DNA of 64,000 nt from Actinomycetota bacterium. GTDB lineage: Bacteria > Pseudomonadota > Alphaproteobacteria > Rhodospirillales > Magnetospirillaceae. The DNA lies in NCBI GenBank assembly GCA_050260215.1, contig JBLNBU010000227.1:593-64592 (forward strand). The letters are read 5' to 3'. A program made the translations under genes and the position numbers. Below the pieces are notes generated by a model, which was not told the DNA's origin, did not search any database, and worked only from the letters and a program-made list of their open reading frames with translations. Shown here piece after piece: positions 19,074 to 44,242 of this stretch. How positions within the stretch are numbered: position 1 is the first letter of the stretch; each line of letters opens with the position of its first letter.

Positions 19074-19077
19074 CGGC

Positions 19078-21784: not shown

Positions 21785-21796
21785 GGCAACACGGCC

Positions 21797-23395: not shown

Positions 23396-23420
23396 CGCGT
23401 ATGGCAAGGCATCGGCGGCT

Positions 23421-24965: not shown

Positions 24966-24984
24966 CGCCTCGTAGGGAGACCCC

Positions 24985-25854
24985 ATGTCCAATCTGCTCA
25001 TCACCGGCGCCACCGGCTATATCGGCGACCGCCTGGTCGAGATGGCGCTCGCCGCCGGCCATTCGGTGACGGTGCTGGGTCGTCGCCCGTCGGCCCGCCC
25101 CGTGCGCAACGTGCCTTGGGACCTGGACCGGCCGGTGCCGGACGACGCCTTTGCCGGGGTCGACGCCGTCATCCACCTGGCCCACCAGTGGCAGAAGGGC
25201 GACGAGCCCGAGGGCGAGGACGCCAATACCACCGGCACCCGCGCCCTGCTGGACGCGGCGCGGCGGCACGGCGTGGCGCGCTTCGTCTTCGGGTCGACCA
25301 TCGTCGCCCGGCCGGACGCCCTCAACAAGTACGGCCGCAACAAGGCGCTGACCGAGGGCCTGCTGCAGCGCCCGGGCGAGGTCGCCGCCCGCATCGGCCT
25401 GGTCTACGGCGGAGCGTTGCAAGCGCTGTGGGGCACCATGTGCCGGGTTGCCGGCCTGGGGCCCGTGCTGCCCATGCTGGGCGTCGACCAGCCGGTGCAG
25501 CCCATTCACCGCGACGAGGTGTGCGAGGGCCTGCTGCGCCTTGCCACCTTGCCGACCCTGTCGCAGACGGTCTATGTGCTGGCCGGGTCGCAGCCGATGA
25601 CTTTCGGCGCCTTCCTCAAGCTGATTGCCCGCCAGCGCCTGGGGCGGCGGCTGTGGCTGCTGCCCATCCCGCTGAAGCTGGCACTGGCCGCCGTCGACCT
25701 CCTGGCGCTGGTCCCCGGGTTGCCCAAGGTGGGGCGCGAGCGGGTGCTGGGGCTTGCCGGCATGCGCACCCTTGCCAGCGCCGCGGACCTGGCCGCCATC
25801 GGCCTGACCCTGCGTTCCCCCGCCGAAGCGCTGAAGGCGGAGCGACCGGTCTAG
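24985..25854 (+). CDS. NAD-dependent epimerase/dehydratase family (SDR) protein
   Basis: 289 aa. Motif LLITGATGYIGDRL. GGGAGA lies upstream of the ATG. Confidence 0.75.
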   Translation: MSNLLITGATGYIGDRLVEMALAAGHSVTVLGRRPSARPVRNVPWDLDRPVPDDAFAGVDAVIHLAHQWQKGDEPEGEDANTTGTRALLDAARRHGVARFVFGSTIVARPDALNKYGRNKALTEGLLQRPGEVAARIGLVYGGALQALWGTMCRVAGLGPVLPMLGVDQPVQPIHRDEVCEGLLRLATLPTLSQTVYVLAGSQPMTFGAFLKLIARQRLGRRLWLLPIPLKLALAAVDLLALVPGLPKVGRERVLGLAGMRTLASAADLAAIGLTLRSPAEALKAERPV

Positions 25855-29743: not shown

Positions 29744-31552
29744 ATGATGTTTTCGGCCATCTCGCGGGCGATCGGCCTGCTTTCCCCCGACCAGCGAAAG
29801 CGCTTCATCCTCTTGTGCGCCGCGACGGTCGTGGCATCGCTGGCCGAGATGCTCAGTCTCGGCATGCTGTTCCCGCTGATCAAGGTGGTGGCCGACCCGG
29901 GCGTGGTCAAAGGCGTGCCCGGGCTGGGCCCGCTGGTGGCGCTGGCCGGCGGCGACGACCATCGGCTGGTGCTGGTGTTCGCCGGCGCCTTCGCCGCCAT
30001 CTTCGTGGTCAAAAGCGTCTATGTGTACCTGGTCGGCCTGGCCCAGGTGCGCTTCATCCAGTCCAATCACGCCGCGGTCGCCCGCCGGCTGCTGGGCGCC
30101 TATATCGACGCGCCGTTCTCGTTCCACCTGGGGCGCAATTCCGCCGACCTGGTGCGCAACATCCACGACGGCCTCTACAGCGTGTTCGCCGGAATGCTGA
30201 CCCACGCCGTGCGCGCTTTCACCGAGGCGTCCACCGGCCTGGCCATGCTGGTGCTCTTGTTCGTCGCCAACCCGCAGGTGGCGCTGCTGTGCTTCGGCAG
30301 CGCCGGCACGGTGTTCGTGGCCGGCTACCTTCTGGTGCACGGCCGCTTCGACAAGCTGGGCAAGCAGAAATACGCGCAGCTCGCCAACCGGCTGAAGCTG
30401 CTCAACCAGTGCCTGGGCAGCATCAAGGAAATCAAGGTCATCGGGCGCCAGGACTACTTCTCGGCCCAGTACCACGCCGCCGACCACGAGATCAATTCGG
30501 TGATGTACCGCATGGCGGCGCTGTCGGATGCGCCGCGCTATGCGCTGGAGGCGTCCATGGTGGTGATCATCTCGGTGGTCATCATGCTGAAGGCCGGCGA
30601 TTCCGCCGCCGACCTGGTCGCCACCCTTGGCGTGTACGCCGCCGCGGCCTTCCGGCTGATGCCGTCGGCCAACCGGCTGACCATCGCCATGGCCCAGGTC
30701 CGCCACAACGCCGCCGCCGTCGACCAGGTCGCGCGGGACTTCGACGAGATCGCCGCCGAGCTGGCGAAACTGCCGCCCCGCGCCAACGCCACCGGGCCGG
30801 CCGAGTTCACCACCCTGCAGCTGCGCGGCCTGGGCTATCACTATCCGCAAGGCGCGCGGCCGGCGCTGACCGGCATCGACCTGGACATCCGGCGGGGCGA
30901 GTGGGTGGCCCTGGTGGGGCGCTCGGGGGCGGGCAAGTCGACCCTGGCCGAGATCCTGCTGCGCCTGCTCGAACCGTCCGAGGGCGGGCTGCTGGTCGAT
31001 GGCCGCCCGGTTGGCCCGGACGGGAGCGGGTGGCCGCAGACCGGCTACGTGCCGCAGACCATCTATATCTTCGACGACACCATCCGCAACAACGTCACCC
31101 TGGGCATGCCCGCCTCTGATGGGGCCATCGAGCGGCTGCTGGCCGAGGTCAAGCTGACCGAGTTCATCGCCGACCTGCCCGGCGGCCTCGAATCACTGGC
31201 GGGTGAACGGGGCGTGCGCATGTCGGGAGGGCAGCGCCAGCGCCTGGGCATCGCCCGCGCGCTGTTCCCCGATCCCCAGCTCTTGGTCCTGGACGAGGCG
31301 ACCTCGGCCCTGGATTCCGAGACCGAGCGGGCGTTCATCGACGCCCTCGAGCAGATGCGCGGCGAGCGCACCATCATCATGATCGCTCATCGTCTCAGCA
31401 CGGTGCGGCACTGCGACCGCATCGTCTTCGTCGACGGCGGCCGCATCGACGACCACGGCAGCTTCGCCGAGCTCATGGACCGCAACCCGCGCTTCCGCGC
31501 CCTGGTGCGCGCCTCGGGCGACGAGCACGAGGCCGAGCCCGCGCCTCTATGA
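29744..31552 (+). CDS. ABC exporter, fused permease + ATPase (MsbA/PglK/Wzk-like)
   Basis: 602 aa. N-terminal transmembrane domain, Walker A GRSGAGKST, signature MSGGQRQR, Walker B LLVLDEATSALD. Confidence 0.9.
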   Translation: MMFSAISRAIGLLSPDQRKRFILLCAATVVASLAEMLSLGMLFPLIKVVADPGVVKGVPGLGPLVALAGGDDHRLVLVFAGAFAAIFVVKSVYVYLVGLAQVRFIQSNHAAVARRLLGAYIDAPFSFHLGRNSADLVRNIHDGLYSVFAGMLTHAVRAFTEASTGLAMLVLLFVANPQVALLCFGSAGTVFVAGYLLVHGRFDKLGKQKYAQLANRLKLLNQCLGSIKEIKVIGRQDYFSAQYHAADHEINSVMYRMAALSDAPRYALEASMVVIISVVIMLKAGDSAADLVATLGVYAAAAFRLMPSANRLTIAMAQVRHNAAAVDQVARDFDEIAAELAKLPPRANATGPAEFTTLQLRGLGYHYPQGARPALTGIDLDIRRGEWVALVGRSGAGKSTLAEILLRLLEPSEGGLLVDGRPVGPDGSGWPQTGYVPQTIYIFDDTIRNNVTLGMPASDGAIERLLAEVKLTEFIADLPGGLESLAGERGVRMSGGQRQRLGIARALFPDPQLLVLDEATSALDSETERAFIDALEQMRGERTIIMIAHRLSTVRHCDRIVFVDGGRIDDHGSFAELMDRNPRFRALVRASGDEHEAEPAPL

Positions 31553-31562: not shown

Positions 31563-33080
31563 CTATGAGGTGGTGTCGGTGGCCGCGGTGGCGATCGACG
31601 CCGAGCGGCGCCGGCGCTTCTTGGCCTGGCCGCTGAGGAAGTAATAGTTCACCGCCCGCCAGGCATTGCGGATCCAGCTGACCGGGTCGTTGGGGCGGGC
31701 GCCGCGGAAGATGCGGAAGCTCAGCAGGTACGTATTGAAGATCGAGCCGACGAAATTATACAGGCTCGGCAACGGCAGGCTGGCCAGCGGCTTCAACATC
31801 GGCTGCATGAAGTCGGGCAGGTTGCAGAAGATCGGCCCGAGATAGCTGAGGTTCAGCTGGATCCGGCGTTCCATCGCCGTGTAGTTGGTCAGCACCGACT
31901 CGTTGCGATAGGTGTTGTTGTAGTCGAAATTGTCGGGCAGCACGCCTCTCATCTTGGCGTACTCGGTCAGCTCGGTGCGCGGGAACGGGCAGAACACGCT
32001 GAACGTCGCCGCGGTGGGGGCCGCCTTGCGGGCGAAGGCGATGGACTGGAAGTCCTGGTCCAGGGTGGTCCCCGGCAGCCCCAGCATGGTGTTCGAGTGG
32101 GTGTAGATGCCGTACTTGCGCGCGACCGCATAGGCGTTCAGCAGCACCTCGTCGGGCATGTTGCGCTTGAGCACCGCGTTGCGGGCCTCGAGCACGCCGG
32201 TCTCGATGGACATGGAGACCGACTGGCAGCCGGCCTTCTTCAGCAGCCGGCCGACATCGTCGACCAGCCCGTCGGCGCGGATCAGGCAATAGAACGGCAG
32301 GCCGACCTCGCGCGGGTAGCGCTCGGCGAATTCCTCGAGCCAGGCGTCGGCGCGGATGGCGAAGACGTCGTCGGAAAACCGCAGGAAGCGCATTTCCGGG
32401 AAGGTCTCGCGCACGTACTTGATCTCGGCCAGGAGATGGTCGACCGAACGGCGCACGAACAGCTTGCGGCCCTCGCCCTTGAACATCCGGTTGTAGGCGT
32501 GGTTGAAGCAGTAGGTGCACTTGTAGGGGCAGCCGCGCTGGGTCTGGAACGACCGGATGCCGACCTGCTGCAGGTTGGGGTCGAAGTCGTAGATCAGCGA
32601 GCGGTCGAGGAACGGCAGGGCGTCCAGGTCCTCGACGACCTCCTTGATCAGGGTGTCCGATGTGCTGGCCAGCACGTTGGGAATGCCCGAGAAGTCGCGG
32701 CCGGCCTCGATGCGGTCCAAGATGGCGGGCAGGGCGTTGTCGCCATGGCCGACGACGATGGCGTCCAGGCCCATCTTGTCGAGCACTTCGGGGAAGTAGG
32801 TGGCGTGCGGCCCGCCCATGATGCGCCAGACCTTGCGGCCGGTCGCATGCATGTACTCCTTCACCTGGTTGTCGCCCTCGACGAAGATGTGCTCGTTGGC
32901 GGTGATGGTCGAATAGCCGACCAGGTCGGGTTCGAACTCGCGCAGGGCCTCTTCCATGGGCTGGCGGGTCAGCACGCACAGCCGGGTCTGGTGGCCCTTC
33001 TTCTTGGCGATGGCCGACAGCAGCATCACCCCGAGGGGTTCGGAAAAGAACAGGTGGGAGGTGACGAACAGGATCTTCAT
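31563..33080 (-). CDS. B12-binding-domain radical SAM enzyme
   Basis: From MKILFVTSHLF. Motifs DLVGYSTITANE, IMGGPHATYFP, and the cluster motif QRGCPYKCTYCFN. The alternative GTG start at 33101 would overlap the upstream gene. Confidence 0.85.
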   Translation of the reverse strand: MKILFVTSHLFFSEPLGVMLLSAIAKKKGHQTRLCVLTRQPMEEALREFEPDLVGYSTITANEHIFVEGDNQVKEYMHATGRKVWRIMGGPHATYFPEVLDKMGLDAIVVGHGDNALPAILDRIEAGRDFSGIPNVLASTSDTLIKEVVEDLDALPFLDRSLIYDFDPNLQQVGIRSFQTQRGCPYKCTYCFNHAYNRMFKGEGRKLFVRRSVDHLLAEIKYVRETFPEMRFLRFSDDVFAIRADAWLEEFAERYPREVGLPFYCLIRADGLVDDVGRLLKKAGCQSVSMSIETGVLEARNAVLKRNMPDEVLLNAYAVARKYGIYTHSNTMLGLPGTTLDQDFQSIAFARKAAPTAATFSVFCPFPRTELTEYAKMRGVLPDNFDYNNTYRNESVLTNYTAMERRIQLNLSYLGPIFCNLPDFMQPMLKPLASLPLPSLYNFVGSIFNTYLLSFRIFRGARPNDPVSWIRNAWRAVNYYFLSGQAKKRRRRSASIATAATDTTS

Positions 33081-33090
33081 GGACGGCCGA

Positions 33091-34092
33091 TCATGGCTCA
33101 CGGAACGGGACGGGTTCGGGATGGGCGGCCACCTCGGCCACGAGCTTGTCGTGGTCGATGGGGTCGCCCTTGGCGGTGATCAGCTCGGCCAGCATGCCGA
33201 AGCAGAACAGCTGGACCGAGATCACCCCGGTCATCACCCCGAAACTGAGCAATGGGCGGTGCCCGATGCTTTCGCTGGTGAACATCCAGATGCCGGTCAG
33301 GTACAGCAGGGTCACCAGGCTGACGAACCCCAGCGCCACGCCGACGCCGCCGAACAGGTGGCCCGGGCGGGTGGCATAGCGGGTCAGCGCCACCACCGTC
33401 ATCAGGTCGAGCAGCCCGCGCACGTACCGCTCCCACCCGTATTTCGACACACCGTGGCGGCGGGGGTGGTGTTCGACGGGGATCTCGGCGATGCGGAAGC
33501 CCTGGGCGTGGGCCAGCGCCGGTATATAACGGTGCAGCTCGCCGTAGAGGCGGATGTTGCGCAGCACCTCGGCCCGATAGGCCTTGAAGCCGCAGTTGAA
33601 GTCGCGCAGCGCCAGCCCGGTGACGCGTGCGGTCACCATGTTGAACAGCTTGGACGGCAGGGTCTTGTCCAGCGGGTCCTGGCGGCGTTCCTTCCAGCCC
33701 GACACCAGGTCGTAGCCTTCCTCCAGCTTGGCCAGGAAGCGCGGGATCTCCTTGGGATCGTCCTGCAGGTCGGCATCCATGGTGACGATCGCCGCGCCGC
33801 GGGCGCAGCGGAAGCCGGCCATCAGCGCGTCGGCCTTGCCGAAATTGCGCCGAAGCCTGAGCGCGCGGACGACGCGCGGGAACTGCGCCGCCAGGCGCGC
33901 CATTTCCGCCCAGCTGCCGTCGGTGCTGCCATCGTCGACGAGAATGAGTTCGTAGGGAATGTTGCCTGCGGTGGCCATGGCGGCGGCGACGCCTTGGACC
34001 AGTGCGGCCAGTGTCGAGCACTCGTTGAGCGCCGGAACCACCACGCTGACCTTTGGCACGGACAAGTCGGCGCTGATGTTCATAAGCTCCAT
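33091..34092 (-). CDS. Glycosyltransferase family 2, polyprenyl-phosphate glycosyltransferase (ArnC/GtrB/CsbB-like) with two C-terminal transmembrane helices
   Basis: From MELMNISADLSVPKVSVVVPALNE. Motifs LILVDDGSTDGS, MDADLQDDP and SGWKERRQDP. Hydrophobic segments are LFGGVGVALGFVSLVTLLYL and VMTGVISVQLFCFGMLAELI. Confidence 0.85.
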   Translation of the reverse strand: MELMNISADLSVPKVSVVVPALNECSTLAALVQGVAAAMATAGNIPYELILVDDGSTDGSWAEMARLAAQFPRVVRALRLRRNFGKADALMAGFRCARGAAIVTMDADLQDDPKEIPRFLAKLEEGYDLVSGWKERRQDPLDKTLPSKLFNMVTARVTGLALRDFNCGFKAYRAEVLRNIRLYGELHRYIPALAHAQGFRIAEIPVEHHPRRHGVSKYGWERYVRGLLDLMTVVALTRYATRPGHLFGGVGVALGFVSLVTLLYLTGIWMFTSESIGHRPLLSFGVMTGVISVQLFCFGMLAELITAKGDPIDHDKLVAEVAAHPEPVPFREP

Positions 34093-34133
34093 CTGGCGCC
34101 GCTTGTCTTCAAGGTCGGGGCGCAACGCGGCAA

Positions 34134-34162
34134 AGCTAGTGGATGTCGCCCGCCAAAGTCAA
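34134..34162 (-). promoter_or_regulatory. Putative sigma70-like promoter (TTGACT-N17/18-CTAGCT/TAGCTT) for the GT2/rSAM operon, with the same conserved 12-nt motif
   Basis: The reverse complement reads GTTGACTTTGGCGGGCGACATCCACTAGCTT. It shares GCCAAAGTCAAC with 29673-29684. Confidence 0.3.
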
Positions 34163-34303
34163 CACGACTGCCATTTTCGCGGGGCCGCCCGAGGGGCCCG
34201 CGGGGGGCCGAGCTAGTGCTTCAATTTCAGTTCGATCCGTCGTACAAGGAGCCTGGCCCATGGGGGAGTGCCACTCCCGGAACCGCCCCGAGAAAACTGT
34301 GAA

Positions 34304-35950
34304 ATGACCGTCGCTCCCAATACAAACGCGCCCGCCGTCGACCACGAAATGCGCGCCAAGGCCGGTCCGGTCAATTCGCTGACGGTTGCCGACGCCCTGG
34401 CCGCGTTCGCCCCGCCGGACCCGGCCCGCAGCCGCATCCAGTTGCTGCGCCCGTTCATCGTCATGTCGAAGACGTCCTACAGCACCCCCATCGTGCTGCC
34501 CATCGGTGCCGCCTATATCGGCGGGCTGATGGAGAAGGCGGGGTACGGCGTCGACATCATCGACGCGGTGGGCGAAGCGGTCGGCCAGATCGACCTGACC
34601 GAGGACGGCCGCAAGAAGCGCCAGGGCCTGTCGCCCGCGGCGATTCTTGACCGCATCGACCCCAAGGCGGCGGTGCTGGGCGTGTCGTTGATGTTCTCGC
34701 AGGAATGGATCGAGCATCGCGACCTCATCACCGAGATCCGCGCCCGCCATCCCGACATGATCATCGTCGCCGGCGGCGAGCACGTCACCGCCATGCCCCA
34801 GTTCGTGCTCGAGACCTGCCCCGCCATCGACTACCTGGTGATGGGCGAAGGCGAGCTGACCTTCCTCGAGCTGGTCCACCGCCTGCTGGCGGGCAAGCCG
34901 GTCGACGGCATGACCGGCATCGCCTATCGCGGGGCCGACGGCAAGGTGGTCCACACCGGGGTCGGCCGGCGCATCGTCGACTTCCAGAACCTGCCGCGTC
35001 CGGCCTGGCACCTGTGCCCGGTCGACAGCTATTTCGGCAAGGCGTTCGCCTTCGGCGTCTCGTTCGGCCGCAACATGCCGATCCTGGCCACCCGCGGCTG
35101 CCCGTACCAGTGCACCTTCTGCTCGAACCCGACCATGTGGACGACGCGCTACACCATGCGCGATCCGGCCGACGTGGTCGACGAGATCGAGCACCTGATC
35201 GCCACCTACGGCTGCAACAGCATCGACTTCGCCGACCTGACCGCCATCGTCAAGAAGCAGTGGATCCTGGACTTCTGCGTCGAACTGAAGCGGCGCAACG
35301 TCCGCATCGTCTGGCAGCTGCCCACCGGTACCCGTGCCGAGGCGCTGGACCACGAGACCCTGTCGGCCATTTACGACGCCGGCTGCCGGCTGGTGGTCTA
35401 TGCCCCCGAAAGCGGCTCGGAAGAGACGCTGAAGCTGATCAACAAGCGGCTCAAGCTGCAGAACGTGCTGGCCAGCGCGGCAGTGGCGGCCGAGATCGGC
35501 CACATGACCAAGGTGAACTTCATCCTGGGCTTTCCCGGCGAAACCCGCCGCTCCATGCTCGAGACCATCTGGTGCTGCCTCAAGATGGCGACCAAGGGGG
35601 TGGGGGACTGCAACGTCGCGGTGTTCTCGCCCTATCCGGGCTCGCTGCTGTTCAAGCAGCTGGTCGATGCGGGCAAGATCGACATCAACAGCGATGAATA
35701 CTTCCACGACCTGATCACGTTCTTCGATTTCACCCACTTGCGGGCCTATAACGAGAACGTCCCGGCGTGGGAGATCGGCATCTACCGGTTCATCGGCCTG
35801 GCCGGCTTCTACTCGGCCTCGTACCTGCTCTATCCCAAGCGCCTGTGGCGCCTGCTCAAGGGCGTGCTGGGCCACGAGTTCAAGCCGCAGTCGCTGTTCG
35901 AGCAGCGGGTCTACGACGCGATCGTGCGGTCGCGGCGGGCGGCCGACTGA
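34304..35950 (+). CDS. B12-binding-domain radical SAM enzyme
   Basis: From MTVAPNTNAP. Motifs VLGVSLMFSQEW, IIVAGGEHVTAMP, and the cluster motif TRGCPYQCTFCSNP. Confidence 0.85.
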   Translation: MTVAPNTNAPAVDHEMRAKAGPVNSLTVADALAAFAPPDPARSRIQLLRPFIVMSKTSYSTPIVLPIGAAYIGGLMEKAGYGVDIIDAVGEAVGQIDLTEDGRKKRQGLSPAAILDRIDPKAAVLGVSLMFSQEWIEHRDLITEIRARHPDMIIVAGGEHVTAMPQFVLETCPAIDYLVMGEGELTFLELVHRLLAGKPVDGMTGIAYRGADGKVVHTGVGRRIVDFQNLPRPAWHLCPVDSYFGKAFAFGVSFGRNMPILATRGCPYQCTFCSNPTMWTTRYTMRDPADVVDEIEHLIATYGCNSIDFADLTAIVKKQWILDFCVELKRRNVRIVWQLPTGTRAEALDHETLSAIYDAGCRLVVYAPESGSEETLKLINKRLKLQNVLASAAVAAEIGHMTKVNFILGFPGETRRSMLETIWCCLKMATKGVGDCNVAVFSPYPGSLLFKQLVDAGKIDINSDEYFHDLITFFDFTHLRAYNENVPAWEIGIYRFIGLAGFYSASYLLYPKRLWRLLKGVLGHEFKPQSLFEQRVYDAIVRSRRAAD

Positions 35951-35951
35951 A

Positions 35952-38057
35952 ATGCTCGACATACCGGCGCTGGCCCGCATCGCCCTGGTATCGGTGCTGC
36001 TGCTGGGAACCGTGTCGTTGATGCCGCGCCGGCGCGCCGGCCTGTTCGCCGCCGAGGTCGAGGCCAGGACCATCCTGCTGCTGGGCATCGCCTGGGTGCT
36101 GGCGGTGACGCTGGAATTCTGGATCCTGGGGCCGGCCTCGTTCGTCAATTTCGGCGACGAAGGCGCCCAGGCGCTTCCCTATTACATCCACCTCGCCGAA
36201 CACGCTCCGCCGGGCCGCTACGATTTCCGCGTCATGGGCGGCGTCGACGCCCTGGCGATCTTTTCGTCCGGCTATCAGCTGGCCTCGATCGAGCGCCTGC
36301 TGTTCGCATGGCTGTCGCCGTGGCTGGCCACCGCCGTCCACAAGGTGGCCGCCGAGGGTCTGGCGCTGGCCGGGGCGTACCTGCTCGCCCGTGCCGCGGC
36401 CCCGGTCAACCGGCCGGCGGCGCTGGGCATTGCCGCCGTCTACACCCTGGCGACCCAGTACGTCATCGAGGTGACGCTGGCCCACGGCTTCGGCTACCAC
36501 GTCCAAGCGCTGGCCGTGTTGGTGCTGTGCTATCGCACCCAGGCCCGCACCTATTTGCTCGAGGCCGCCGCCATGGCGGTGGCGGTGGCGGTGTCGATCC
36601 TGCCGGTGCAGGGCGGCATGGGCTTCTATACGGCCGTCGGCTTGACCGCCCTGCTGGGCGGTGCCTGGCGCCGGCCGCGCTTCTACGCCGCCCTGGCGCT
36701 GATGCTGCCGCTCCATGTGCTGAACTGGGCGGGGATCATGGCGGCCATGGCGGGGATTGCGCCGCTGACCTCGCGGGTGCAGCTGTTCGCGCCGCCGCTC
36801 GACATCGGGGGCGAGCTCACTCTGTCCCAGTTGCTGGTCCCGGCCGTCGCCATCGCCGTGTCGCTGGGCATCGCCGTCTTCCGGCGCCAGCCGGCCTCCA
36901 TCGCCCGCCAGGCGGCGTTGCTGCTGGGGCCGGCGCTGGTGGCCGTCGTGCTGGACACCGCGCCGTGGGACCGCATCGGCCTGGGCTTCGTCAAGGGGGT
37001 CAATCCCAGCTACGTCCTGTTCGCCTGGCTGCCGCTGGCGGTGGTGTCGCTGGCCGAGGCGGTGGCCGGGCTCAAGCCCGCCCTCGAGCGGGGCGCGCCG
37101 GCCGCGCGCCTGCTGGCGGCGGCCTTGTGCTGCGGGCTGCCGCTGGGGCTGGCGGCCCACTACAAGGTCTACAACGGCCTGTACTGGCTGGGGTTCGGCG
37201 GCCATTCGGCGCTGCACGGCATTCCCAACCTGGTCCGGCCGACCTGGCTGCCCGACGAGCCGGTGCGCGCGGTCGCGGTGGCGCATCATCTGTCCGACAA
37301 CAACCTGCTGGCCTACGGCATTGAAACGGCCGGCGGCTATTTCATGCTGTTCGACGCCCGCAAGAACGCCTTCTGGCAACAGGCGGGCCGTGTCATGGCC
37401 GCCGGCCGGCTGGGCCTGAAGGTGCCGGAACGGTCCTGCCCCGGGGTGCAGAAGCTGGCCGACCTGGGCAATGCCCGGCTGCTGCGCATCGCCAACATCC
37501 GCTATCTCGTCAGCACGCTTCCGGTGGAAGGGGCCGGCCTGACCCAGGTCAGCGGGCCCGACCCGGCCAAGTTCCGCCCGTCCTGCACCATGGCCGCCGG
37601 CGAGAAGCTGGCCAGCTATTGGCGGCGCCTGCTGGCGCCCGAGGACGCCTATGTCTACGACCTGGGTGCGGCGGTGCCGCGAGTGTATTTTGCCCGCAGC
37701 GTCGCGCAGCCTCAGCGCTTCGGCACGCCCGAGTACTGGCGGGCGGTCGAAGAGGTCGGCGAGGCCCAGGGTATCGTTCCCGAAACCGGCGCCGAGTTGA
37801 ACGGTGCCAGCGCCGCAACCGCGCGGGTGACCAAGGCCAGCGTCGCCGGCGACGGCATGGAGATCGAGGTCGATGCTCCGGCCGGGGGCGTGCTGGTGAT
37901 CAATTCGTCGTGGCTGCCGTTCTTCCGGGCCACGGCGGATGGCGTGCCGGTGACGCTGGTCCCCGTCAACGGGGTGCAAATGGCGGCGGCCCTGCCGGCC
38001 GGGGCTCGATCCGTCAAGGTCGAGTATGTTCGCCGGCTGCCGGTACCGGCGGGATGA
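35952..38057 (+). CDS. YfhO-like integral-membrane glycosyltransferase (GT-C fold)
   Basis: 701 aa and polytopic. The C-terminal beta-rich tail WLPFFRATADGVPVTLVPVNGVQMAAALPAGARSVKVEY matches the characteristic YfhO-family end (W.A.VDG....VN......VP.G.H.V...Y). Paralog of 42029-44161. Confidence 0.65.
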   Translation: MLDIPALARIALVSVLLLGTVSLMPRRRAGLFAAEVEARTILLLGIAWVLAVTLEFWILGPASFVNFGDEGAQALPYYIHLAEHAPPGRYDFRVMGGVDALAIFSSGYQLASIERLLFAWLSPWLATAVHKVAAEGLALAGAYLLARAAAPVNRPAALGIAAVYTLATQYVIEVTLAHGFGYHVQALAVLVLCYRTQARTYLLEAAAMAVAVAVSILPVQGGMGFYTAVGLTALLGGAWRRPRFYAALALMLPLHVLNWAGIMAAMAGIAPLTSRVQLFAPPLDIGGELTLSQLLVPAVAIAVSLGIAVFRRQPASIARQAALLLGPALVAVVLDTAPWDRIGLGFVKGVNPSYVLFAWLPLAVVSLAEAVAGLKPALERGAPAARLLAAALCCGLPLGLAAHYKVYNGLYWLGFGGHSALHGIPNLVRPTWLPDEPVRAVAVAHHLSDNNLLAYGIETAGGYFMLFDARKNAFWQQAGRVMAAGRLGLKVPERSCPGVQKLADLGNARLLRIANIRYLVSTLPVEGAGLTQVSGPDPAKFRPSCTMAAGEKLASYWRRLLAPEDAYVYDLGAAVPRVYFARSVAQPQRFGTPEYWRAVEEVGEAQGIVPETGAELNGASAATARVTKASVAGDGMEIEVDAPAGGVLVINSSWLPFFRATADGVPVTLVPVNGVQMAAALPAGARSVKVEYVRRLPVPAG

Positions 38058-39022
38058 CCCGCGGCCAGGTGGTCAAGCTGACCCTGGCCGCGCTGATGAG
38101 CGCGGCGGTGGTCGCGTTCCTGGTCGGCCGGGTGGACGTCGAGTTCCTGGCCGCCGAGTTCAAGGGCGCCAAGATCCCCTGGCTGGTGGCCGCCGGGGCC
38201 ACCTTGGTGCCCATCACCGGATTGCGGGCGTGGCGGTTCTCGCTGCTGCTGTGGCGCCGGCGTTCGGCCCCGCCCATGGGGATGTGCCGCATCGTCGCCT
38301 TCATGCTGTTCTTCAACCTGATCCTGCCGTTCAAGACCGGGGAACTCAGCTTCCCCATCCTGGCGCGCCGGGCCTATGACATACCCCTGGGGACCAGCCT
38401 GGGGGCCCTGGTGCTGGTGCGCGTGCTCGACCTGTTGTCGGTGGTGGCCATCGGCGGGCTGGCGACCCTGGCGCTGTCCCAGCCGATGCCGCCATGGGTC
38501 GACGGGGCGGCGGTGCTGGGCGCGGTGTGCGTGCCGCTGCTGCTTGCCATGCCGTTCGCCGACCGGCTGGGATCGGCGGTCGGCCGCGGGCTCACCGGCC
38601 TGCCGCCGCGCCTGCTGAACATCGCCAAGGAGCTGCATGCCGGCCTGCGGGCGGTGAGGGAATGGCCGGACTACGCCCTGTTGCTGGGGCTGACATTGGC
38701 GATCTGGCTGATGCAGTTCGTGGTGGCCTGGATGACGCTGCAGGCGATCGGCGCCCATCCGTTCATCCACGCGGTGCTGGCCAGCTGTGCCGCCTCGGTG
38801 GCATTCGCCTTCCCGGTCAACGGGGTCGCCAGTGTCGGCCCCTTGCAGGCGGCGTGGTCGGCGGCCCTGTCCATCGTAGGAACCAATTGGGAGCAGGCGG
38901 TGGCCTCCGCCTTCCTGTGGCACGCGGTGATGCTGGTCGAGACCAGCCTGTTTGCCGGTCTGGCCGCCCTGTTTCCCGGTCGTCCCGCCAAGGGGCTTGA
39001 GCAGGACAAGGGGCCGGCGTAG
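38054..39022 (+). CDS. Flippase-like membrane protein, UPF0104 / lysyl-phosphatidylglycerol-synthase TM-region family
   Basis: From MTRGQVVKLTLAALMSAAVVAFLVGRVD...LRAWRFSLLL. About 8 hydrophobic spans. Its ATG forms an ATGA overlap with the YfhO-like stop. Confidence 0.7.
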   Translation: MTRGQVVKLTLAALMSAAVVAFLVGRVDVEFLAAEFKGAKIPWLVAAGATLVPITGLRAWRFSLLLWRRRSAPPMGMCRIVAFMLFFNLILPFKTGELSFPILARRAYDIPLGTSLGALVLVRVLDLLSVVAIGGLATLALSQPMPPWVDGAAVLGAVCVPLLLAMPFADRLGSAVGRGLTGLPPRLLNIAKELHAGLRAVREWPDYALLLGLTLAIWLMQFVVAWMTLQAIGAHPFIHAVLASCAASVAFAFPVNGVASVGPLQAAWSAALSIVGTNWEQAVASAFLWHAVMLVETSLFAGLAALFPGRPAKGLEQDKGPA

Positions 39023-39038
39023 CTTGTCCCGCGCGACG

Positions 39039-39788
39039 ATGCATGGATCGAGGGTTATGGGGATTTCGGCAGAGCTGTTGATGAAGCGCGTTTACGTCTG
39101 CGGCATCCGCGGACTGTCGCGCGGGCTGACCAGCGTCGGAGTGCGCGGCTGGCTGGAGCGCCGCCGCAGCAACCGGGCGGCGCTGTTCCTGCGCAGCCTC
39201 ATGTCGATCTACGACTTCCAGGACATGATCCGCCTCGACATCCCGTGGTGGACCTTCGGTGCCGCCGCCGAGGTCGAGGCGTTCCTGAAGGCCAAGGGCG
39301 GCCGGGCGCGGGTGTTCGAATACGGCCCCGGCGCCAGCACCGCCTGGCTTGCCGCCCGCGCCGGCAGCGTCTCCTACGTCGAGCACGACCCCGACTTCCA
39401 CGGTGCGCTGGCGGCCGAAATGGCCCGGTTGCCCAACGTGTCGGGACAGCTGGTCGAGCCGGTGGCTCCGCCCGCCGGCCAGGCGCCGCGCTGCTCGTCG
39501 CAGCGCGCCGGCTACCAGGGCCTGGAATTCGCCGCCTATGTCGCCGCCATCGGCGACGCCGGCGGTCCCTTCGACCTGATCATCGTCGACGGCCGCGCCC
39601 GCCCGCACTGCCTGGCCGAGGCGGTGAAGCACCTGGCCAAGGGCGGCATGATCCTGTTCGACGACACCCAGCGGGCGCGCTACGGCGGGGCGCTTGCCGC
39701 GGCCGGCTTGCCGGTCGAGCGCTACCGCGGCCTGCGCCCGGCGCTTCCCTACGTCACCGAGACGTCGCTGCTGCGCGGCGCAGCCTGA
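39039..39788 (+). CDS. Class I SAM-dependent methyltransferase (Methyltransf_24/CmcI-like)
   Basis: Motifs VFEYGPGASTAWLA and FDLIIVDGRARPHC...GGMILFDD. Start is uncertain (ATG 39039, with later candidates). Confidence 0.65.
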   Translation: MHGSRVMGISAELLMKRVYVCGIRGLSRGLTSVGVRGWLERRRSNRAALFLRSLMSIYDFQDMIRLDIPWWTFGAAAEVEAFLKAKGGRARVFEYGPGASTAWLAARAGSVSYVEHDPDFHGALAAEMARLPNVSGQLVEPVAPPAGQAPRCSSQRAGYQGLEFAAYVAAIGDAGGPFDLIIVDGRARPHCLAEAVKHLAKGGMILFDDTQRARYGGALAAAGLPVERYRGLRPALPYVTETSLLRGAA

Positions 39789-40698
39789 TCAGGGCGATTT
39801 CGGGCCGGCAGTTGAAGCGGAGCGGCGGCGACCCCGATCCCACCCCGGTGGTGGTGTAGCCCTGCATGCCCATCCATCGCCACGCGCCGGTCGCCAGCGC
39901 GCGGTGGCTGTCCAGGAAGGTCACGATGGGCCGTCCGCCCGGCAGGCAGATCTGCCCGCCGTGGGTATGGCCGGCCAGGTACAGGCGGAACCCCGCCTCG
40001 GCCGCATTGGTGGCCAGCTCAGGCGTATGGACCAGGGCGATGCGGAAGCCGTCGCGATGCTCGTGCAGGGCGCGCGTCGCCGCCGGGGTGAAGAAGCTGT
40101 GGACGTCGTCCAGCCCCAGCAGGCGCAAGACGGCGCCGCCCCTGGTCACCGACGCCCATTCGTTGACCAGGACCCGGGCGCCCAGGCCTTCCAACTCGTC
40201 GGCAACCTCGTGGGAGTCGTGGTTGCCCAGCAGGGCCAGCACGCCGTCCGGCGGCGCCAGGGCGCCAAGCAGCGGCGCCAGGGCGGTGCCGACCTGGGCG
40301 GGCGTGGGCCGGCCGAAGGTCTGGTAGTCGCCGCCCAGCACCGCAAGGTCGGGCGCCATCGACCGGACCAGGTCGGCGGCGGCGGCGACGGCCTTGGGCG
40401 TCTGCGCCACATGCAGGTCCGACATGAACAAGATGGTGTAGCCGTCGAAGGCCTGGGGCAGGTCCTCGAACGCCATCTCGCGCACCGCCACGTGCAGGTC
40501 GTGGGCGTTGGCGCTGCCGCGTCGGGTGGCGAACAGGGCGGCGAAGGCCAGCCGGGTGGGCAGCGAGACGTGGTTGGCCCGCCGGCGCTCGCCCTCGACC
40601 GACGCCCGCACTCCCTGCTGAGCCAGTTTTTGTTCCAGCTGCATGCGTGCCTGGCGCCACTGGGCACGTCTCGAATGGCTGCGTGTATCCTCGGGCAT
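39754..40698 (-). CDS. Calcineurin-like metallophosphoesterase
   Basis: 314 aa. Motifs FMSDLHV, LGGDY, LLGNHD and LAGHTHGGQ. Convergent with the methyltransferase, with a 35-nt 3' overlap. Confidence 0.85.
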   Translation of the reverse strand: MPEDTRSHSRRAQWRQARMQLEQKLAQQGVRASVEGERRRANHVSLPTRLAFAALFATRRGSANAHDLHVAVREMAFEDLPQAFDGYTILFMSDLHVAQTPKAVAAAADLVRSMAPDLAVLGGDYQTFGRPTPAQVGTALAPLLGALAPPDGVLALLGNHDSHEVADELEGLGARVLVNEWASVTRGGAVLRLLGLDDVHSFFTPAATRALHEHRDGFRIALVHTPELATNAAEAGFRLYLAGHTHGGQICLPGGRPIVTFLDSHRALATGAWRWMGMQGYTTTGVGSGSPPLRFNCRPEIALIRLRRAAATSR

Positions 40699-40725: not shown

Positions 40726-40820
40726 TGGTGCCGGCAGTCGAAAAGGCACGCCGATGATCCTTGACCGCGACGGCGGCACTCGCGACAATCCGCTCCTCCT
40801 CCAATATTTGCCCGGTGTCC

Positions 40821-44161: not shown

Positions 44162-44242
44162 GGCCGCATTTCCTTACGGTCGGACCATTGCCTATGATAT
44201 ATGGGCAGATGGGCCGGTGGGCCGTTTTCTCGAGGAAGCAGC

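What the first reader, a model, noticed from the sequence alone, without database searches (positions are those of the whole stretch)
31563..39788. GT2 + flippase-like + YfhO three-component glycosylation module flanked by two cobalamin radical SAM enzymes
Seen in sequence:
- A 211-nt divergent promoter region (34093-34303) drives two units.
- On the minus strand these are an ArnC/GtrB/CsbB-like GT2 (MDADLQDDP, two C-terminal TM helices) followed by a B12-binding radical SAM enzyme.
- On the plus strand these are another B12-binding radical SAM enzyme, a YfhO-type GT-C, a UPF0104 flippase-like membrane protein (ATGA-coupled) and a SAM methyltransferase.

Established knowledge:
- GT2 + flippase + GT-C trios (GtrA/B/C, ArnC/ArnEF/ArnT, CsbB/GtcA/YfhO) make a polyprenyl-phosphate sugar, flip it, and transfer it outside the cytoplasm.
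- Radical SAM enzymes are not part of any of these described systems.
- The closest precedent for a GT2 paired with a B12-domain radical SAM is the hopanoid HpnI/HpnJ pair, where the radical enzyme rearranges the sugar already attached to the lipid.

Inference: this unit is a candidate undescribed variant in which the lipid-linked monosaccharide is radically C-methylated or rearranged (two paralogous rSAMs plus one conventional methyltransferase) before or after flipping. YfhO would then transfer it to an unknown periplasmic acceptor.
Basis: partly seen in the sequence, partly recalled or inferred. Interest (0 to 1): 0.78.

Follow-up and report, generated by a model that had tools for sequence, protein, structure and literature searches.

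The report
Radical-SAM-linked periplasmic sugar-adding gene module
A Magnetospirillum-like bacterium carries an otherwise standard gene set for adding a side sugar to a surface polysaccharide outside the cytoplasm, but vitamin-B12-type radical enzymes sit inside it here and in related genomes, which suggests an undescribed way of chemically altering that sugar.

Summary
All six genes are at the stated coordinates, around a 211-nt divergent gap, with ATGA coupling between the GT-C and UPF0104 genes.

- **GT2:** a full-length relative of ArnC and GtrB.
- **Radical SAM genes:** both have B12-binding and radical SAM domains.
- **UPF0104 protein:** matches PF03706.
- **701-aa protein:** no direct Pfam hit. 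Its family hits YfhO/DUF6044, and a pLDDT 93 model matches only GT-C glycosyltransferases.

The whole 64-kb window is one glycan island from a Magnetospirillum-like alphaproteobacterium (labelled Actinomycetota at NCBI). It holds five GT-C-type proteins, four mutually distant B12 radical SAM enzymes and one SPASM radical SAM enzyme. One GT-C is a second YfhO paralogue at 42029-44161.

The neighbourhood is conserved:
- rSAM2 orthologues sit next to, or one gene from, this GT-C family in four other contigs, in shuffled gene order.
- The rSAM1, GT2 and UPF0104 genes recur with the GT-C paralogue's orthologue in M. moscoviense.

The link is not universal. M. gryphiswaldense and most distant rSAM1 relatives lack it.

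The substrate (lipid-linked sugar, nucleotide sugar or nonulosonic acid) and the chemistry remain untested. Verdict: a new variant of a known kind; interest 0.6.

The parts
31563..33080 (-). rSAM1: B12-binding-domain radical SAM enzyme (505 aa; the ORF is open to 33101). It lies 10 nt downstream of the GT2 gene.
   Evidence: Pfam B12-binding 4.5e-13 and Radical_SAM 1.8e-17. No NCBIfam equivalog reaches its cut-off (best: HpnJ, 92 bits vs 577.6). The external gene call agrees. Orthologues are 86% identical in M. moscoviense and 56% on a JGI contig, each near a GT2, a UPF0104 gene and a ~700-aa membrane protein.
33091..34092 (-). ArnC/GtrB/DPMS-type GT2: predicted polyprenyl-phosphate sugar synthase with two C-terminal TM helices.
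   Evidence: Glycos_transf_2 3e-31. ArnC model NF007986 at 2.6e-54 but below its cut-off. Full-length phmmer match to ArnC structures 9e-51, GtrB 5e-25, DPMS 2e-18. TM helices and the DADLQDDP motif. Homologues of 38-73% identity in L002, L003, L004, L010, L012, L013 and L015.
34093..34303 (.). 211-nt divergent intergenic region between the two units.
   Evidence: Coordinates from the ORFs and the external gene calls. No sigma-70-like site and no Rfam family.
34304..35950 (+). rSAM2: B12-binding-domain radical SAM enzyme (548 aa). Its stop codon is 1 nt before the GT-C start.
   Evidence: Pfam B12-binding 5.9e-17 and Radical_SAM 3.8e-18. All NCBIfam hits are far below their cut-offs. The closest solved relative is AprD4 at 3e-19, followed by TokK. 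Orthologues sit next to the GT-C family in L002 (74%), L011 (66%) and L063 (42%), and one gene away (after the GT2) in L012 (68%).
35952..38057 (+). GT-C1: YfhO-related GT-C-fold membrane glycosyltransferase (701 aa) with a polytopic N-terminal half and a beta-rich C-terminal domain.
   Evidence: No direct Pfam hit. The family has 282 representatives at E<=1e-30. 46 of 64 members hit YfhO and 40 hit DUF6044. AF2 pLDDT is 93.3. The Foldseek top 15 are all GT-C enzymes (AftD 1.8e-7, AglB, STT3, AftA, ArnT, PglB). Acidic E70 (80/83) and D99 (79/83) and invariant R439 are conserved.
38054..39022 (+). UPF0104 / LPG_synthase_TM membrane protein (322 aa, ~8 TM), a candidate flippase. Its start overlaps the GT-C1 stop (ATGA).
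   Evidence: PF03706 7e-28, 98.4 bits vs a cut-off of 33.4, covering the full profile. TM prediction. GC3 0.93. UPF0104 genes also sit in the rSAM1 loci L013 and the JGI contig. The flippase role comes from the literature, not from a test here (PMC5898192; PMC12713373).
39057..39788 (+). Probable class I SAM methyltransferase (243 aa).
   Evidence: Methyltransf_24 1.9e-5, 25.9 bits vs a cut-off of 26.3. PDB relatives are weak: 3cvo at 4.7e-4 and a putative O-methyltransferase, 8c9s, at 2.9e-3. No homologue in the related loci.
39754..40698 (-). Calcineurin-like metallophosphoesterase; role unknown.
   Evidence: Metallophos 1.4e-9. A 40% homologue lies next to the rSAM2 homologue and the ArnC-like GT2 in L010.
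40761..42032 (+). Unknown 423-aa protein. Its stop overlaps the GT-C2 start (ATGA).
   Evidence: GC3 0.92. No Pfam hit. Overlap read from the sequence.
42029..44161 (+).
   Evidence: Reading frame fixed by a GC3 scan. 31% identical to GT-C1 over 675 aa, 3e-68. Pfam YfhO 42.7 bits vs a cut-off of 28.5. A 53% orthologue sits beside the rSAM1 orthologue in M. moscoviense.
44201..45325 (+). Radical SAM / SPASM-domain enzyme, 39 nt downstream of GT-C2 and upstream of the CMP-sugar synthetase and NeuB genes.
   Evidence: Radical_SAM 1.6e-12 and SPASM 1.6e-18.
29744..31552 (+). Fused ABC exporter (TMD + NBD) flanking the module; a candidate exporter of the acceptor glycan.
   Evidence: ABC_membrane and ABC_tran. 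Homologues in L004, L010 and the JGI contig.
20813..25854 (+). Second analogous unit: ArnC-like GT2 with C-terminal TM helices (20813-21784), FAD oxidoreductase (21785-23395), B12 radical SAM rSAM3 (23400-24965) and SDR epimerase/reductase (24985-25854).
   Evidence: Pfam and TM prediction. The rSAM3 orthologue (64%) sits directly upstream of the GT-C1 homologue in L003. The SDR is 47-50% identical in L002, L003 and L011, and the FAD enzyme 45% in L011. The L011 FAD homologue has a weak GMC_oxred_C hit.

Best explanation
The region is a three-component extracytoplasmic glycosylation module. It sits inside a very large surface-polysaccharide island (O-antigen- or capsule-like, containing a nonulosonic acid) of a Magnetospirillum-like Gram-negative bacterium. 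Proposed sequence of events:

1. The ArnC/GtrB-type GT2 loads a sugar from a nucleotide donor onto undecaprenyl phosphate at the cytoplasmic face. This is inferred from full-length homology.
2. The cytoplasmic B12-domain radical SAM enzymes, possibly with the conventional methyltransferase, alter that sugar. Each defines the donor used by its own GT-C: rSAM2 with GT-C1, rSAM1 with GT-C2. The most likely chemistry is C-methylation. A HpnJ-like rearrangement or an AprD4-like dehydration remains possible. Whether they act on the lipid-linked sugar or on its nucleotide precursor is unresolved. This step is inferred from conserved synteny only.
3. The UPF0104 protein moves the lipid-linked donor across the membrane. 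This is inferred by analogy with the MprF flippase domain.
4. The YfhO-related GT-C enzymes transfer the sugar in the periplasm onto the glycan built by the rest of the island, which is exported by the adjacent ABC transporter. The fold is shown; the acceptor is inferred.
For: **Parts**
- GT2: ArnC 9e-51 over the full length, GtrB 5e-25, DPMS 2e-18.
- GT-C fold: pLDDT 93.3, and the top 15 PDB hits are all GT-C enzymes. Acidic residues E70 and D99 are conserved in the loop after the first core TM helix.
- UPF0104: PF03706 at 7e-28.
- Radical SAM domains and motifs.

**Operon structure**
- 10-nt, 1-nt and overlapping junctions between neighbouring genes.

**Conservation with rearranged gene order**
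- Window: rSAM2 then GT-C.
- L002, L011 and L063: GT-C then rSAM2.
- L012: GT-C, GT2, then rSAM2.
- Across these loci the GT-C is only 35-47% identical, while rSAM2 is 42-74% identical.
- L003 instead pairs the GT-C with an rSAM3 orthologue.
- M. moscoviense has GT2 (73%), UPF0104, rSAM1 (86%) and the GT-C2 orthologue (53%) together.
- A JGI contig has GT2, UPF0104, rSAM1 (56%) and a 681-aa protein.
- The ArnC-like GT2 accompanies the GT-C in 7 of the 8 contexts examined. The exception is the Azospirillum locus L007.

**Within-window test**
- Adjacency by chance has P=0.045, or 0.008 with the GT2 included.

**Precedents**
- Cytoplasmic tailoring of a lipid-linked donor before export: the C. 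youngae ORF13 epimerase and DprE1/E2 (PMC11127046).
- A predicted archaeal neighbourhood of AglD-type GT2, UPF0104 and PMT/STT3-like GT-C (PMC5898192).
Against: - No experiment or computation here shows what the radical SAM enzymes act on.
- The rSAM2 homologue of M. gryphiswaldense (52%) has no GT2 or GT-C within 10 kb.
- Among 80 metagenomic loci of the wider rSAM1 family (31-59% identity), only 3 carry a hit to this GT-C family and about 4 carry a clear ArnC-like GT2. Many of these contigs are short.
- P0004 (32% identical GT-C) has no B12 radical SAM gene within 10 kb.
- The island is so dense in radical SAM and GT-C genes that some adjacency is expected by chance.
- UPF0104, the methyltransferase and rSAM1 are missing from the GT-C1/rSAM2 loci.
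- None of the radical SAM enzymes reaches any curated family threshold, so methylation is only a prior. Their best solved relative, AprD4, is a sugar dehydratase rather than a methylase.
Confidence: 0.5

Rival explanations
1. The trio is an ordinary Gtr-like side-branch glycosylation system. The radical SAM enzymes are general tailoring enzymes of the island that act on nucleotide-activated sugars, for example by C-methylating or chain-extending a legionaminic- or pseudaminic-type nonulosonic acid or another NDP-sugar. Their position next to the GT2 and GT-C genes is incidental.
For: - The window holds four B12 radical SAM enzymes and one SPASM radical SAM enzyme, alongside NeuB, a CMP-sugar synthetase, aminotransferases, a TylC3-type C-methyltransferase and three AsnB genes.
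- The 52% rSAM2 homologue in M. gryphiswaldense sits with a second B12 radical SAM gene, methyltransferases and AsnB, with no GT2 or GT-C within 10 kb.
- M. gryphiswaldense makes CMP-linked ulosonic acids with an extended C10 backbone and a +CH2 mass series. The enzymes responsible are unassigned (bioRxiv 10.64898/2026.04.20.719630).
- The most frequent neighbours of the wider rSAM1 family are DegT aminotransferases and assorted GT2s, not this GT-C family.
Against: - The GT-C/radical SAM pairing survives gene-order rearrangement and 35-47% GT-C divergence in at least six independent contigs, and involves three different radical SAM subfamilies.
- Intergenic distances are tight or overlapping.
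Confidence: 0.3
2. The YfhO-type GT-Cs do not decorate the island's polysaccharide. Instead they modify a different periplasmic acceptor, such as proteins (PMT-like O-glycosylation), lipid A/core or peptidoglycan, using the donor made by the GT2 and the radical SAM enzymes.
For: - GT-C enzymes of the same structural class glycosylate proteins (PMT, PglB, AglB), lipid A (ArnT) and teichoic acids (YfhO). The structural matches do not discriminate between these.
- The acceptor cannot be read from the sequence.
Against: All homologues examined lie inside polysaccharide clusters with AsnB, epimerases, Leloir glycosyltransferases and ABC exporters.
Confidence: 0.1
3. The GT2 and the UPF0104 protein make and flip an end-product membrane glycolipid, as GpgSDF and HexSDF do. 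The radical SAM enzymes modify that lipid, as HpnJ or the ladderane-type lipid radical SAM enzymes do, and the product is not a glycosyl donor.
For: - Bacterial UPF0104 proteins placed in studied operons (GpgF, HexF) are linked to glycolipids (PMC12713373).
- The second-best NCBIfam hit of rSAM1 is the 'lipid biosynthesis B12-binding/radical SAM protein' model, and the best is HpnJ.
Against: - The GT2 is a full-length ArnC/GtrB homologue, whereas GpgS is a GT4.
- A GT-C transferase that needs a lipid-phosphate donor is the most conserved partner of the GT2.
- UPF0104 is absent from most GT-C1 loci.
Confidence: 0.07

Closest known systems
Gtr-type three-component systems (GtrA/GtrB/GtrC of Salmonella and Shigella; CsbB/GtcA/YfhO of Bacillus and Listeria)
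   Same: Both have a GtrB/CsbB-type GT2 with C-terminal TM helices and a GT-C transferase related to YfhO. Both sit in or beside a surface-glycan locus. As in Gtr systems, the donor-making GT2 is conserved (73% identical in M. moscoviense) while the GT-C partner is divergent (31-53%).
   Different: There is no GtrA/GtcA-family flippase; a UPF0104/PF03706 protein stands in its place. B12 radical SAM genes and a methyltransferase are embedded in the operons. One GT2 appears to serve two YfhO paralogues.
Arn pathway (ArnC, ArnD, ArnE/F, ArnT)
   Same: ArnC is the closest solved relative of the GT2 (9e-51, full length). In the Arn pathway the lipid-linked sugar is chemically modified (deformylated by ArnD) before flipping and GT-C transfer. 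That statement about ArnD rests on established knowledge.
   Different: The GT2 scores 184 bits against the ArnC equivalog cut-off of 529. The window has no ArnA, ArnB or ArnD homologues, no SMR flippase, and a YfhO-like rather than ArnT-type GT-C. The modifying enzymes are radical SAM enzymes.
Pentofuranose three-component systems (C. youngae O1/O2 ORF15/14/13/12) and mycobacterial DprE1/DprE2 (PMC11127046)
   Same: Both involve periplasmic side-chain addition to a glycan exported by an ABC transporter, with an auxiliary cytoplasmic enzyme converting the lipid-linked donor before export. A conserved SDR (24985-25854) and an FAD oxidoreductase accompany the module here.
   Different: In those systems the donor synthase is a phosphoribosyltransferase, the flippase is MATE or SMR, the GT-C is GT136 and the tailoring is redox epimerisation. 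No radical SAM enzyme is involved ('radical' occurs 0 times in the paper).
Hopanoid HpnI / HpnK / HpnJ
   Same: A GT2 is paired with a B12-domain radical SAM enzyme that rearranges a sugar already attached to a lipid. HpnJ is the top NCBIfam hit of rSAM1 and a high hit of rSAM2.
   Different: The HpnJ scores are 92 and 139 bits against a cut-off of 577.6, so neither is HpnJ. The lipid here is predicted to be a polyprenyl-phosphate carrier rather than a hopanoid, and a GT-C transferase follows.
Archaeal neighbourhood of AglD-like GT2, UPF0104 and PMT/STT3-like GT-C (Makarova et al. 2015, PMC5898192)
   Same: It has the same three protein classes, including UPF0104 as the predicted flippase.
   Different: It is archaeal, concerns N-glycosylation, is only predicted, and has no radical SAM component.
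Sugar-modifying radical SAM enzymes of aminoglycoside pathways (AprD4/AprD3 dehydratase-reductase; GenK-type class B C-methylases)
   Same: AprD4 is the best solved relative of both rSAM1 (1e-24) and rSAM2 (3e-19). An SDR partner is conserved near the module.
   Different: The similarity covers the radical SAM core only. The AprD4 NCBIfam scores are 59 and 79 bits against a cut-off of 500. The substrates there are soluble pseudo-oligosaccharides.

Membership tests
Three-component (Gtr/Csb-type) extracytoplasmic glycosylation system | Polyprenyl-phosphate glycosyltransferase of the GT2 GtrB/ArnC/DPMS type with C-terminal TM helices | tested here: met
   Full-length phmmer matches to ArnC 9e-51, GtrB 5e-25 and DPMS 2e-18. 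Two C-terminal TM helices. DxD-type motif DADLQDD.
Three-component (Gtr/Csb-type) extracytoplasmic glycosylation system | GT-C-fold integral membrane transferase with conserved acidic residues in the first extracytoplasmic loop | tested here: met
   AF2 pLDDT 93.3. Foldseek top 15 hits are all GT-C, probability 1.00 for ranks 1-14 and 0.97 for rank 15. E70 is acidic in 80/83 and D99 in 79/83 family members. The loop's sidedness is inferred from the positive-inside rule, not tested.
Three-component (Gtr/Csb-type) extracytoplasmic glycosylation system | Small GtrA/GtcA-family, SMR (ArnE/F) or MATE flippase | tested here: not met
   No such family was found among the Pfam scans of the region. A UPF0104/PF03706 protein occupies the position instead.
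Three-component (Gtr/Csb-type) extracytoplasmic glycosylation system | Lipid-phosphate monosaccharide is the donor, and transfer occurs outside the cytoplasm | not testable with these tools
   Requires lipid LC-MS and genetics.
YfhO family (Pfam PF09586) | Score at or above the Pfam gathering threshold (28.5 bits) | tested here: not met
   GT-C1 (35952-38057) has no YfhO hit; its only hit is DUF6044 at E=0.023. The paralogue GT-C2 (42029-44161) scores 42.7 bits, and 46 of 64 GT-C1 homologues hit YfhO at E<=1 (best 3.5e-11). GT-C1 is therefore a distant relative rather than a model-level member.
Cobalamin-dependent (class B type) radical SAM enzymes | N-terminal B12-binding domain plus a radical SAM core with CxxxCxxC | tested here: met
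   PF02310 and PF04055 are above their thresholds in both proteins. The motifs are CPYKCTYC and CPYQCTFC.
Cobalamin-dependent (class B type) radical SAM enzymes | Actual cobalamin binding and methyl transfer | not testable with these tools
   The closest solved relative, AprD4, has the same domain but is annotated in NCBIfam as a diol-dehydratase, not a methylase. Cofactor use is therefore open.
HpnJ (TIGR03471) | Equivalog score of at least 577.6 bits | tested here: not met
   rSAM1 scores 92.3 bits and rSAM2 138.6 bits.
ArnC (NF007986) | Equivalog score of at least 529 bits | tested here: not met
   184.4 bits. The protein has the same architecture but is not ArnC itself, so the sugar is unknown.
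UPF0104 / LPG_synthase_TM (PF03706) | Score above the gathering threshold over the full profile | tested here: met
   98.4 bits against 33.4, covering profile positions 3-296 of 302. No PDB sequence match.
UPF0104 / LPG_synthase_TM (PF03706) | Lipid flippase activity | not testable with these tools
   According to the papers read, translocation has been attributed experimentally only to the MprF flippase domain. GpgF and the AglD C-terminal domain are predictions.
Methyltransf_24 (PF13578) | Score of at least 26.3 bits | tested here: inconclusive
   25.9 bits, E=1.9e-5. Weak PDB relatives are methyltransferase-like proteins.

The most novel reading that the evidence does not exclude
B12-domain radical SAM enzymes act directly on undecaprenyl-phosphate-linked monosaccharides at the cytoplasmic membrane face. 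Each converts a common GT2 product into a distinct donor, C-methylated or otherwise rearranged. A co-evolving YfhO-type GT-C then installs that donor on the cell-surface glycan. This would be a previously unknown, radical-chemistry layer of surface-antigen diversification, and a new substrate class for radical SAM enzymes.
Probability: 0.22. Interest if true: 0.82.

Novelty: new variant of a known kind. Interest (0 to 1): 0.6.

Why it matters
Three-component periplasmic glycosylation is a major route to O-antigen and teichoic-acid diversity, phage resistance and serotype conversion. The known auxiliary enzymes in these systems are deformylases and redox epimerases. A recurrent genetic link to B12-type radical SAM enzymes would add C-C bond-forming or rearranging chemistry to this toolbox. 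It would also predict unusual (C-branched, deoxy or carbocyclic) side-chain sugars in magnetotactic and related alphaproteobacteria.

The finding gives radical SAM enzymologists a family with a tractable genetic context, because an orthologous module exists in the cultivable M. moscoviense. Independently, the radical SAM genes identified here and in M. gryphiswaldense are obvious candidates for the unexplained chain-extended ulosonic acids recently reported in that organism.

Tried and rejected
- **First structure model:** AF2 on a 4-sequence alignment gave pLDDT 46.7 and was discarded.
- **PDB profile search for the GT-C family:** only chance hits.
- **The search for related loci with broad GT-C alignments (A3, A4, A5):** The 4-sequence alignment found only two genomes, a Rhodospirillales MAG and an Azospirillum MAG.
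- **tblastn of GT-C1, GT-C2 and rSAM2 against plasmids:** no match.
- **Rfam scan of the window:** nothing, so no cobalamin riboswitch.
- **Promoter scan:** no sigma-70-like site in the divergent gap.
- **Two of my own ORF choices were wrong frames.** These were 25880-27644(-) and 42097-43398(+), and their empty Pfam results should be ignored. GC3 frame analysis corrected them. The true genes are a PMT_2-like GT-C at 25880-27679(-) and the YfhO paralogue at 42029-44161(+).
- **NCBI label 'Actinomycetota bacterium':** rejected. Seven window proteins are 60-86% identical to Magnetospirillum proteins, with conserved gene order.
- **'It is HpnI/HpnJ' or 'it is ArnC/ArnT':** rejected. All equivalog scores are far below their thresholds.
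- **Polytopic proteins beside distant rSAM1 homologues:** they mostly could not be assigned to a family. One is a clear PMT_2, one a weak PMT_2 and one a weak Wzy_C.

Full report
**1. What is in the sequence**

The window is about 70% G+C, so most long ORFs are spurious. I used third-position GC to pick the real frames. An independent public gene call of an identical contig agrees with them.

The finding's six genes are real:

| Gene | Coordinates | Note |
|---|---|---|
| rSAM1 | 31563-33080 (-) | ORF open to 33101 |
| GT2 | 33091-34092 (-) | |
| Divergent gap | 34093-34303 | 211 nt |
| rSAM2 | 34304-35950 (+) | |
| 701-aa membrane protein | 35952-38057 (+) | starts 1 nt after the rSAM2 stop |
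| UPF0104 protein | 38054-39022 (+) | ATGA overlap |
| Methyltransferase-like gene | 39057-39788 (+) | |

No Rfam family occurs anywhere in the window. No sigma-70-like promoter lies in the gap. 'Divergent promoter region' is therefore inferred from gene orientation alone.

**2. Family assignments**

*Radical SAM proteins.* Both carry B12-binding and Radical_SAM domains above the Pfam thresholds, with CxxxCxxC motifs. Against NCBIfam they hit many class B-type models (HpnJ, ladderane-lipid radical SAM, PhpK, BchE, the Sden_1168 P-methylase, AprD4), all far below the curated cut-offs. The closest solved structure for both is the sugar diol-dehydratase AprD4, followed by TokK, CysS and TsrM. They are only about 25% identical to each other and to two further B12 radical SAM proteins in the window. 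'Paralogous' is therefore a loose description, and their chemistry is open.

*GT2.* It is a full-length homologue of solved ArnC (9e-51), GtrB (5e-25) and DPMS (2e-18), and it includes the two C-terminal TM helices. It scores 184 bits against ArnC's cut-off of 529, so the sugar is unknown.

*UPF0104 protein.* It matches PF03706 over the whole profile (98 bits).

*Methyltransferase.* It is marginal: 25.9 bits against a cut-off of 26.3, with only weak PDB relatives.

*The 701-aa protein.* It has no direct Pfam or NCBIfam hit, and a word-indexed search found only three homologues. An exhaustive profile search found a real family: 282 representatives at E<=1e-30, nearly all about 700 aa long.
- Of 64 members scanned, 46 hit YfhO (best 3.5e-11), 40 hit DUF6044 and 2 hit GT-C_AftD.
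- With 83 sequences, AlphaFold gave pLDDT 93.3. The 15 best PDB matches are all GT-C glycosyltransferases: AftD, AglB, STT3, AftA, ArnT and PglB.
- E70 (acidic in 80/83) and D99 (79/83) lie in the loop after the first core TM helix. Several basic residues, including invariant R439, are conserved.
- 'YfhO-type GT-C' is therefore right at the fold and superfamily level, but the protein is not a model-level PF09586 member.

**3.

The whole window is one glycan island. It contains:
- **GT-C-type proteins (five).** PMT_2-like at 5509-7518, 11093-13012 and 25880-27679; YfhO-like at 35952-38057 and 42029-44161.
- **Radical SAM enzymes (five).** Four B12 type (rSAM1, rSAM2, rSAM3 at 23400-24965, rSAM4 at 53366-55342) and one SPASM type (44201-45325).
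- **Other sugar genes.** Three AsnB amidotransferases, two DegT aminotransferases, a TylC3-type C-methyltransferase, a carbamoyltransferase, ManC, a CMP-sugar synthetase, a NeuB fusion and an ABC exporter (29744-31552).

The second YfhO paralogue (GT-C2, 710 aa) came to light only after I corrected a wrong reading frame. It is 31% identical to GT-C1 (3e-68) and passes the YfhO threshold. It is ATGA-coupled to an unknown 423-aa gene and is followed by the SPASM radical SAM gene.

A second unit at 20813-25854 (+) encodes another ArnC-like GT2 with C-terminal TM helices, an FAD oxidoreductase, rSAM3 and an SDR. This is a DprE1/DprE2-like arrangement with a radical SAM enzyme inserted.

*Organism.* NCBI labels the MAG 'Actinomycetota bacterium'. 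However, the window's proteins are 74-80% (ManC, ADH/GFO) and 60% (AsnB3) identical to M. gryphiswaldense, and 69-86% (ADH/GFO, AsnB3, GT2, rSAM1) identical to M. moscoviense, with shared gene order. The relatives found in genomes are Rhodospirillales and Azospirillum MAGs. The host is a Magnetospirillum-like Gram-negative bacterium, which fits an LPS- or capsule-type acceptor.

**4. Is the neighbourhood conserved?**

Yes, within a clade.

*GT-C1 homologues:*

| Locus | GT-C identity | Arrangement |
|---|---|---|
| L002 | 47% | ArnC-like GT2, SDR, GT-C, rSAM2 orthologue (74%) |
| L011 | 42% | GT-C, rSAM2 (66%), PMT_2 GT-C, FAD enzyme, SDR, GT2 fragment |
| L012 | 35% | GT-C, GT2, rSAM2 (68%) |
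| L063 | GT-C fragment | followed by an rSAM2-like gene (42%) |
| L003 | 45% | rSAM3 orthologue (64%), GT-C, GT2 |
| P0010 (6-kb contig) | 38% | GT-C plus GT2 only |
| P0004 (L004) | 32% | GT-C plus GT2; no B12 radical SAM gene within 10 kb |
| L007 (Azospirillum MAG) | 30% | GT-C only; no homologue of the other window proteins in the 12 kb held |

*rSAM1 homologues:*
- M. moscoviense carries GT2 (73%), MBOAT, UPF0104, an SGNH/GDSL protein, rSAM1 (86%) and the GT-C2 orthologue (53%), next to legionaminic-acid-type genes.
- A JGI contig carries GT2, UPF0104, rSAM1 (56%) and a 681-aa protein.
- A Magnetococcales MAG carries rSAM1 (53%), a methyltransferase and a 666-aa protein.

Gene order differs between these loci and the GT-C sequences are highly diverged. 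That argues for selection on the association rather than recent common descent. Within the window, random gene orders give P=0.045 that both YfhO-type GT-Cs touch a radical SAM gene, and P=0.008 if the GT2 is included.

*Limits of the association:*
- The M. gryphiswaldense rSAM2 homologue (52%) has no GT2 or GT-C within 10 kb.
- In L010 (57%) it lies with an ABC exporter, a metallophosphoesterase, an ArnC-like GT2 and an unassigned 9-TM protein.
- Of 80 metagenomic loci of the wider rSAM1 family (31-59% identity), only 3 carry a hit to this GT-C family and about 4 carry a clear ArnC-like GT2. Many have other polytopic membrane proteins beside them, and many contigs are short.
- UPF0104, the methyltransferase and rSAM1 have no counterparts in the GT-C1/rSAM2 loci.

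**5. Most likely mechanism**

- **Shown:** domain and fold identities, operon-like spacing, and conserved co-location.
- **Inferred from homology:** the GT2 charges undecaprenyl phosphate with a sugar in the cytoplasm, and the GT-Cs transfer it in the periplasm.
- **Inferred by analogy:** UPF0104 flips the donor. The MprF flippase domain is the experimental precedent. Makarova et al. predicted an AglD-GT2/UPF0104/PMT-like trio in archaea (PMC5898192). GpgF is a further predicted case (PMC12713373).
- **Inferred from synteny only:** the radical SAM enzymes tailor the donor sugar. The data fit one shared GT2 and flippase feeding two GT-C paralogues, with each GT-C paired with its own radical SAM enzyme that defines its donor.

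Radical SAM enzymes need cytoplasmic reductant and SAM, so they must act before export, either on the Und-P-sugar or on its nucleotide precursor. There is a published precedent for cytoplasmic remodelling of a lipid-linked donor in O-antigen side-chain systems: the ORF13 epimerase, and DprE1/E2 (PMC11127046).

The chemistry could be C-methylation (my own-knowledge expectation for this class, not tested here), an HpnJ-type rearrangement, or an AprD4-type dehydration followed by reduction by the conserved SDR.

**6. Rivals**

The strongest rival is that the radical SAM enzymes are island-wide nucleotide-sugar tailoring enzymes. A 2026 preprint reports CMP-linked ulosonic acids with an extended C10 backbone and a +CH2 mass series in M. 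gryphiswaldense, with no enzymes assigned. The clustered B12 radical SAM genes there, one of them 52% identical to rSAM2, are obvious candidates.

Lesser rivals are a different periplasmic acceptor and an end-product glycolipid.

**7. Comparison with known systems, and novelty**

The GT2 + flippase + GT-C logic is well known (Gtr, Csb/YfhO, Arn, the pentofuranose systems). A UPF0104 protein in the flippase position has been predicted before, but only in archaea. Radical SAM enzymes embedded in such modules were not found in any paper of the held library.

I classify this as a new variant of a known kind. The conserved gene association is well supported; the chemistry is unproven.

Noticed in passing
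window 42029-44161 (+), with 40761-42032 and 44201-45325: A second YfhO-type GT-C paralogue (710 aa). It is 31% identical to the one in the finding and passes the Pfam YfhO threshold. It is ATGA-coupled to an unknown 423-aa gene and is followed after 39 nt by a radical SAM/SPASM gene. Its 53% orthologue is the GT-C beside the rSAM1 orthologue in M. moscoviense.
   Followed up: yes
window 20813-25854 (+): A tightly packed four-gene unit: ArnC-like GT2 with C-terminal TM helices, FAD oxidoreductase (its homologue in L011 has a weak GMC_oxred_C hit), B12 radical SAM enzyme (rSAM3) and SDR epimerase/reductase. This is DprE1/DprE2-like oxidise-reduce logic on a probable lipid-linked sugar, with a radical SAM enzyme in between. 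Parts of it travel with the GT-C1 family in L002, L003 and L011.
   Followed up: partly
whole window; compare L008 (M. gryphiswaldense CP027527) and L013 (M. moscoviense LWQU01000104): The source MAG is labelled 'Actinomycetota bacterium' at NCBI. However, seven window proteins are 60-86% identical to Magnetospirillum proteins, with shared gene order (RNase T, ManC, epimerase ... ADH/GFO fusion, AsnB). The taxonomic label or the binning is probably wrong.
   Followed up: partly
window 5509-7518 (-), 11093-13012 (-), 25880-27679 (-): Three further PMT_2/ArnT-like GT-C membrane proteins. One lies next to a GT2 at 7502-8566. Another carries a 'GGDEAGYAY' first-loop motif. The island therefore appears to use at least five periplasmic GT-C transferases, which is unusually many for one glycan locus.
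   Followed up: partly
L008 8416-11653 (M. gryphiswaldense), related to window 34304-35950: Two adjacent B12 radical SAM genes flanked by methyltransferases and AsnB in the M. gryphiswaldense glycan locus. A 2026 preprint reports unexplained chain-extended (C10) CMP-ulosonic acids with a +CH2 mass series in this organism. These genes are natural candidates, but the preprint does not propose them.
   Followed up: no
window 47117-49372 (+): An unusual 751-aa fusion protein: a CBS domain, NeuB (nonulosonic acid synthase), SAF and a xylose-isomerase-like TIM barrel (AP_endonuc_2). It lies downstream of a CMP-sugar synthetase, a GFO/IDH/MocA oxidoreductase and the SPASM radical SAM gene.
   Followed up: no
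window 15870-19106 (-): A 1078-aa protein with a C-terminal heparinase II/III-like domain inside a biosynthetic cluster. A 44% homologue occurs in L004, and an ulvan-lyase-N-like protein sits at the equivalent place in L014. It may be a polysaccharide-modifying enzyme (epimerase- or lyase-fold) rather than a degradative one.
   Followed up: no
window 53366-55342 (-): A fourth B12-binding radical SAM protein (658 aa), about 25% identical to the other three. It lies between the ManC/epimerase genes and the ADH/GFO fusion gene, at a position where M. gryphiswaldense has a Glycos_transf_4 gene instead.
   Followed up: no
window 39754-40698 (-) and L010 11649-12584: A calcineurin-like metallophosphoesterase is conserved (40%) next to the rSAM2 homologue and an ArnC-like GT2 in an otherwise different locus. 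This suggests a role in the same pathway, for example pyrophosphate or phosphodiester cleavage of a sugar carrier.
   Followed up: no
L013 5185-9920 (M. moscoviense): In the orthologous M. moscoviense module, an MBOAT protein, an unknown 308-aa protein and an SGNH/GDSL protein are inserted between the GT2, the UPF0104 gene and rSAM1. That is the usual pairing for extracytoplasmic O-acylation of glycans, so the module there probably also O-acylates its product.
   Followed up: no
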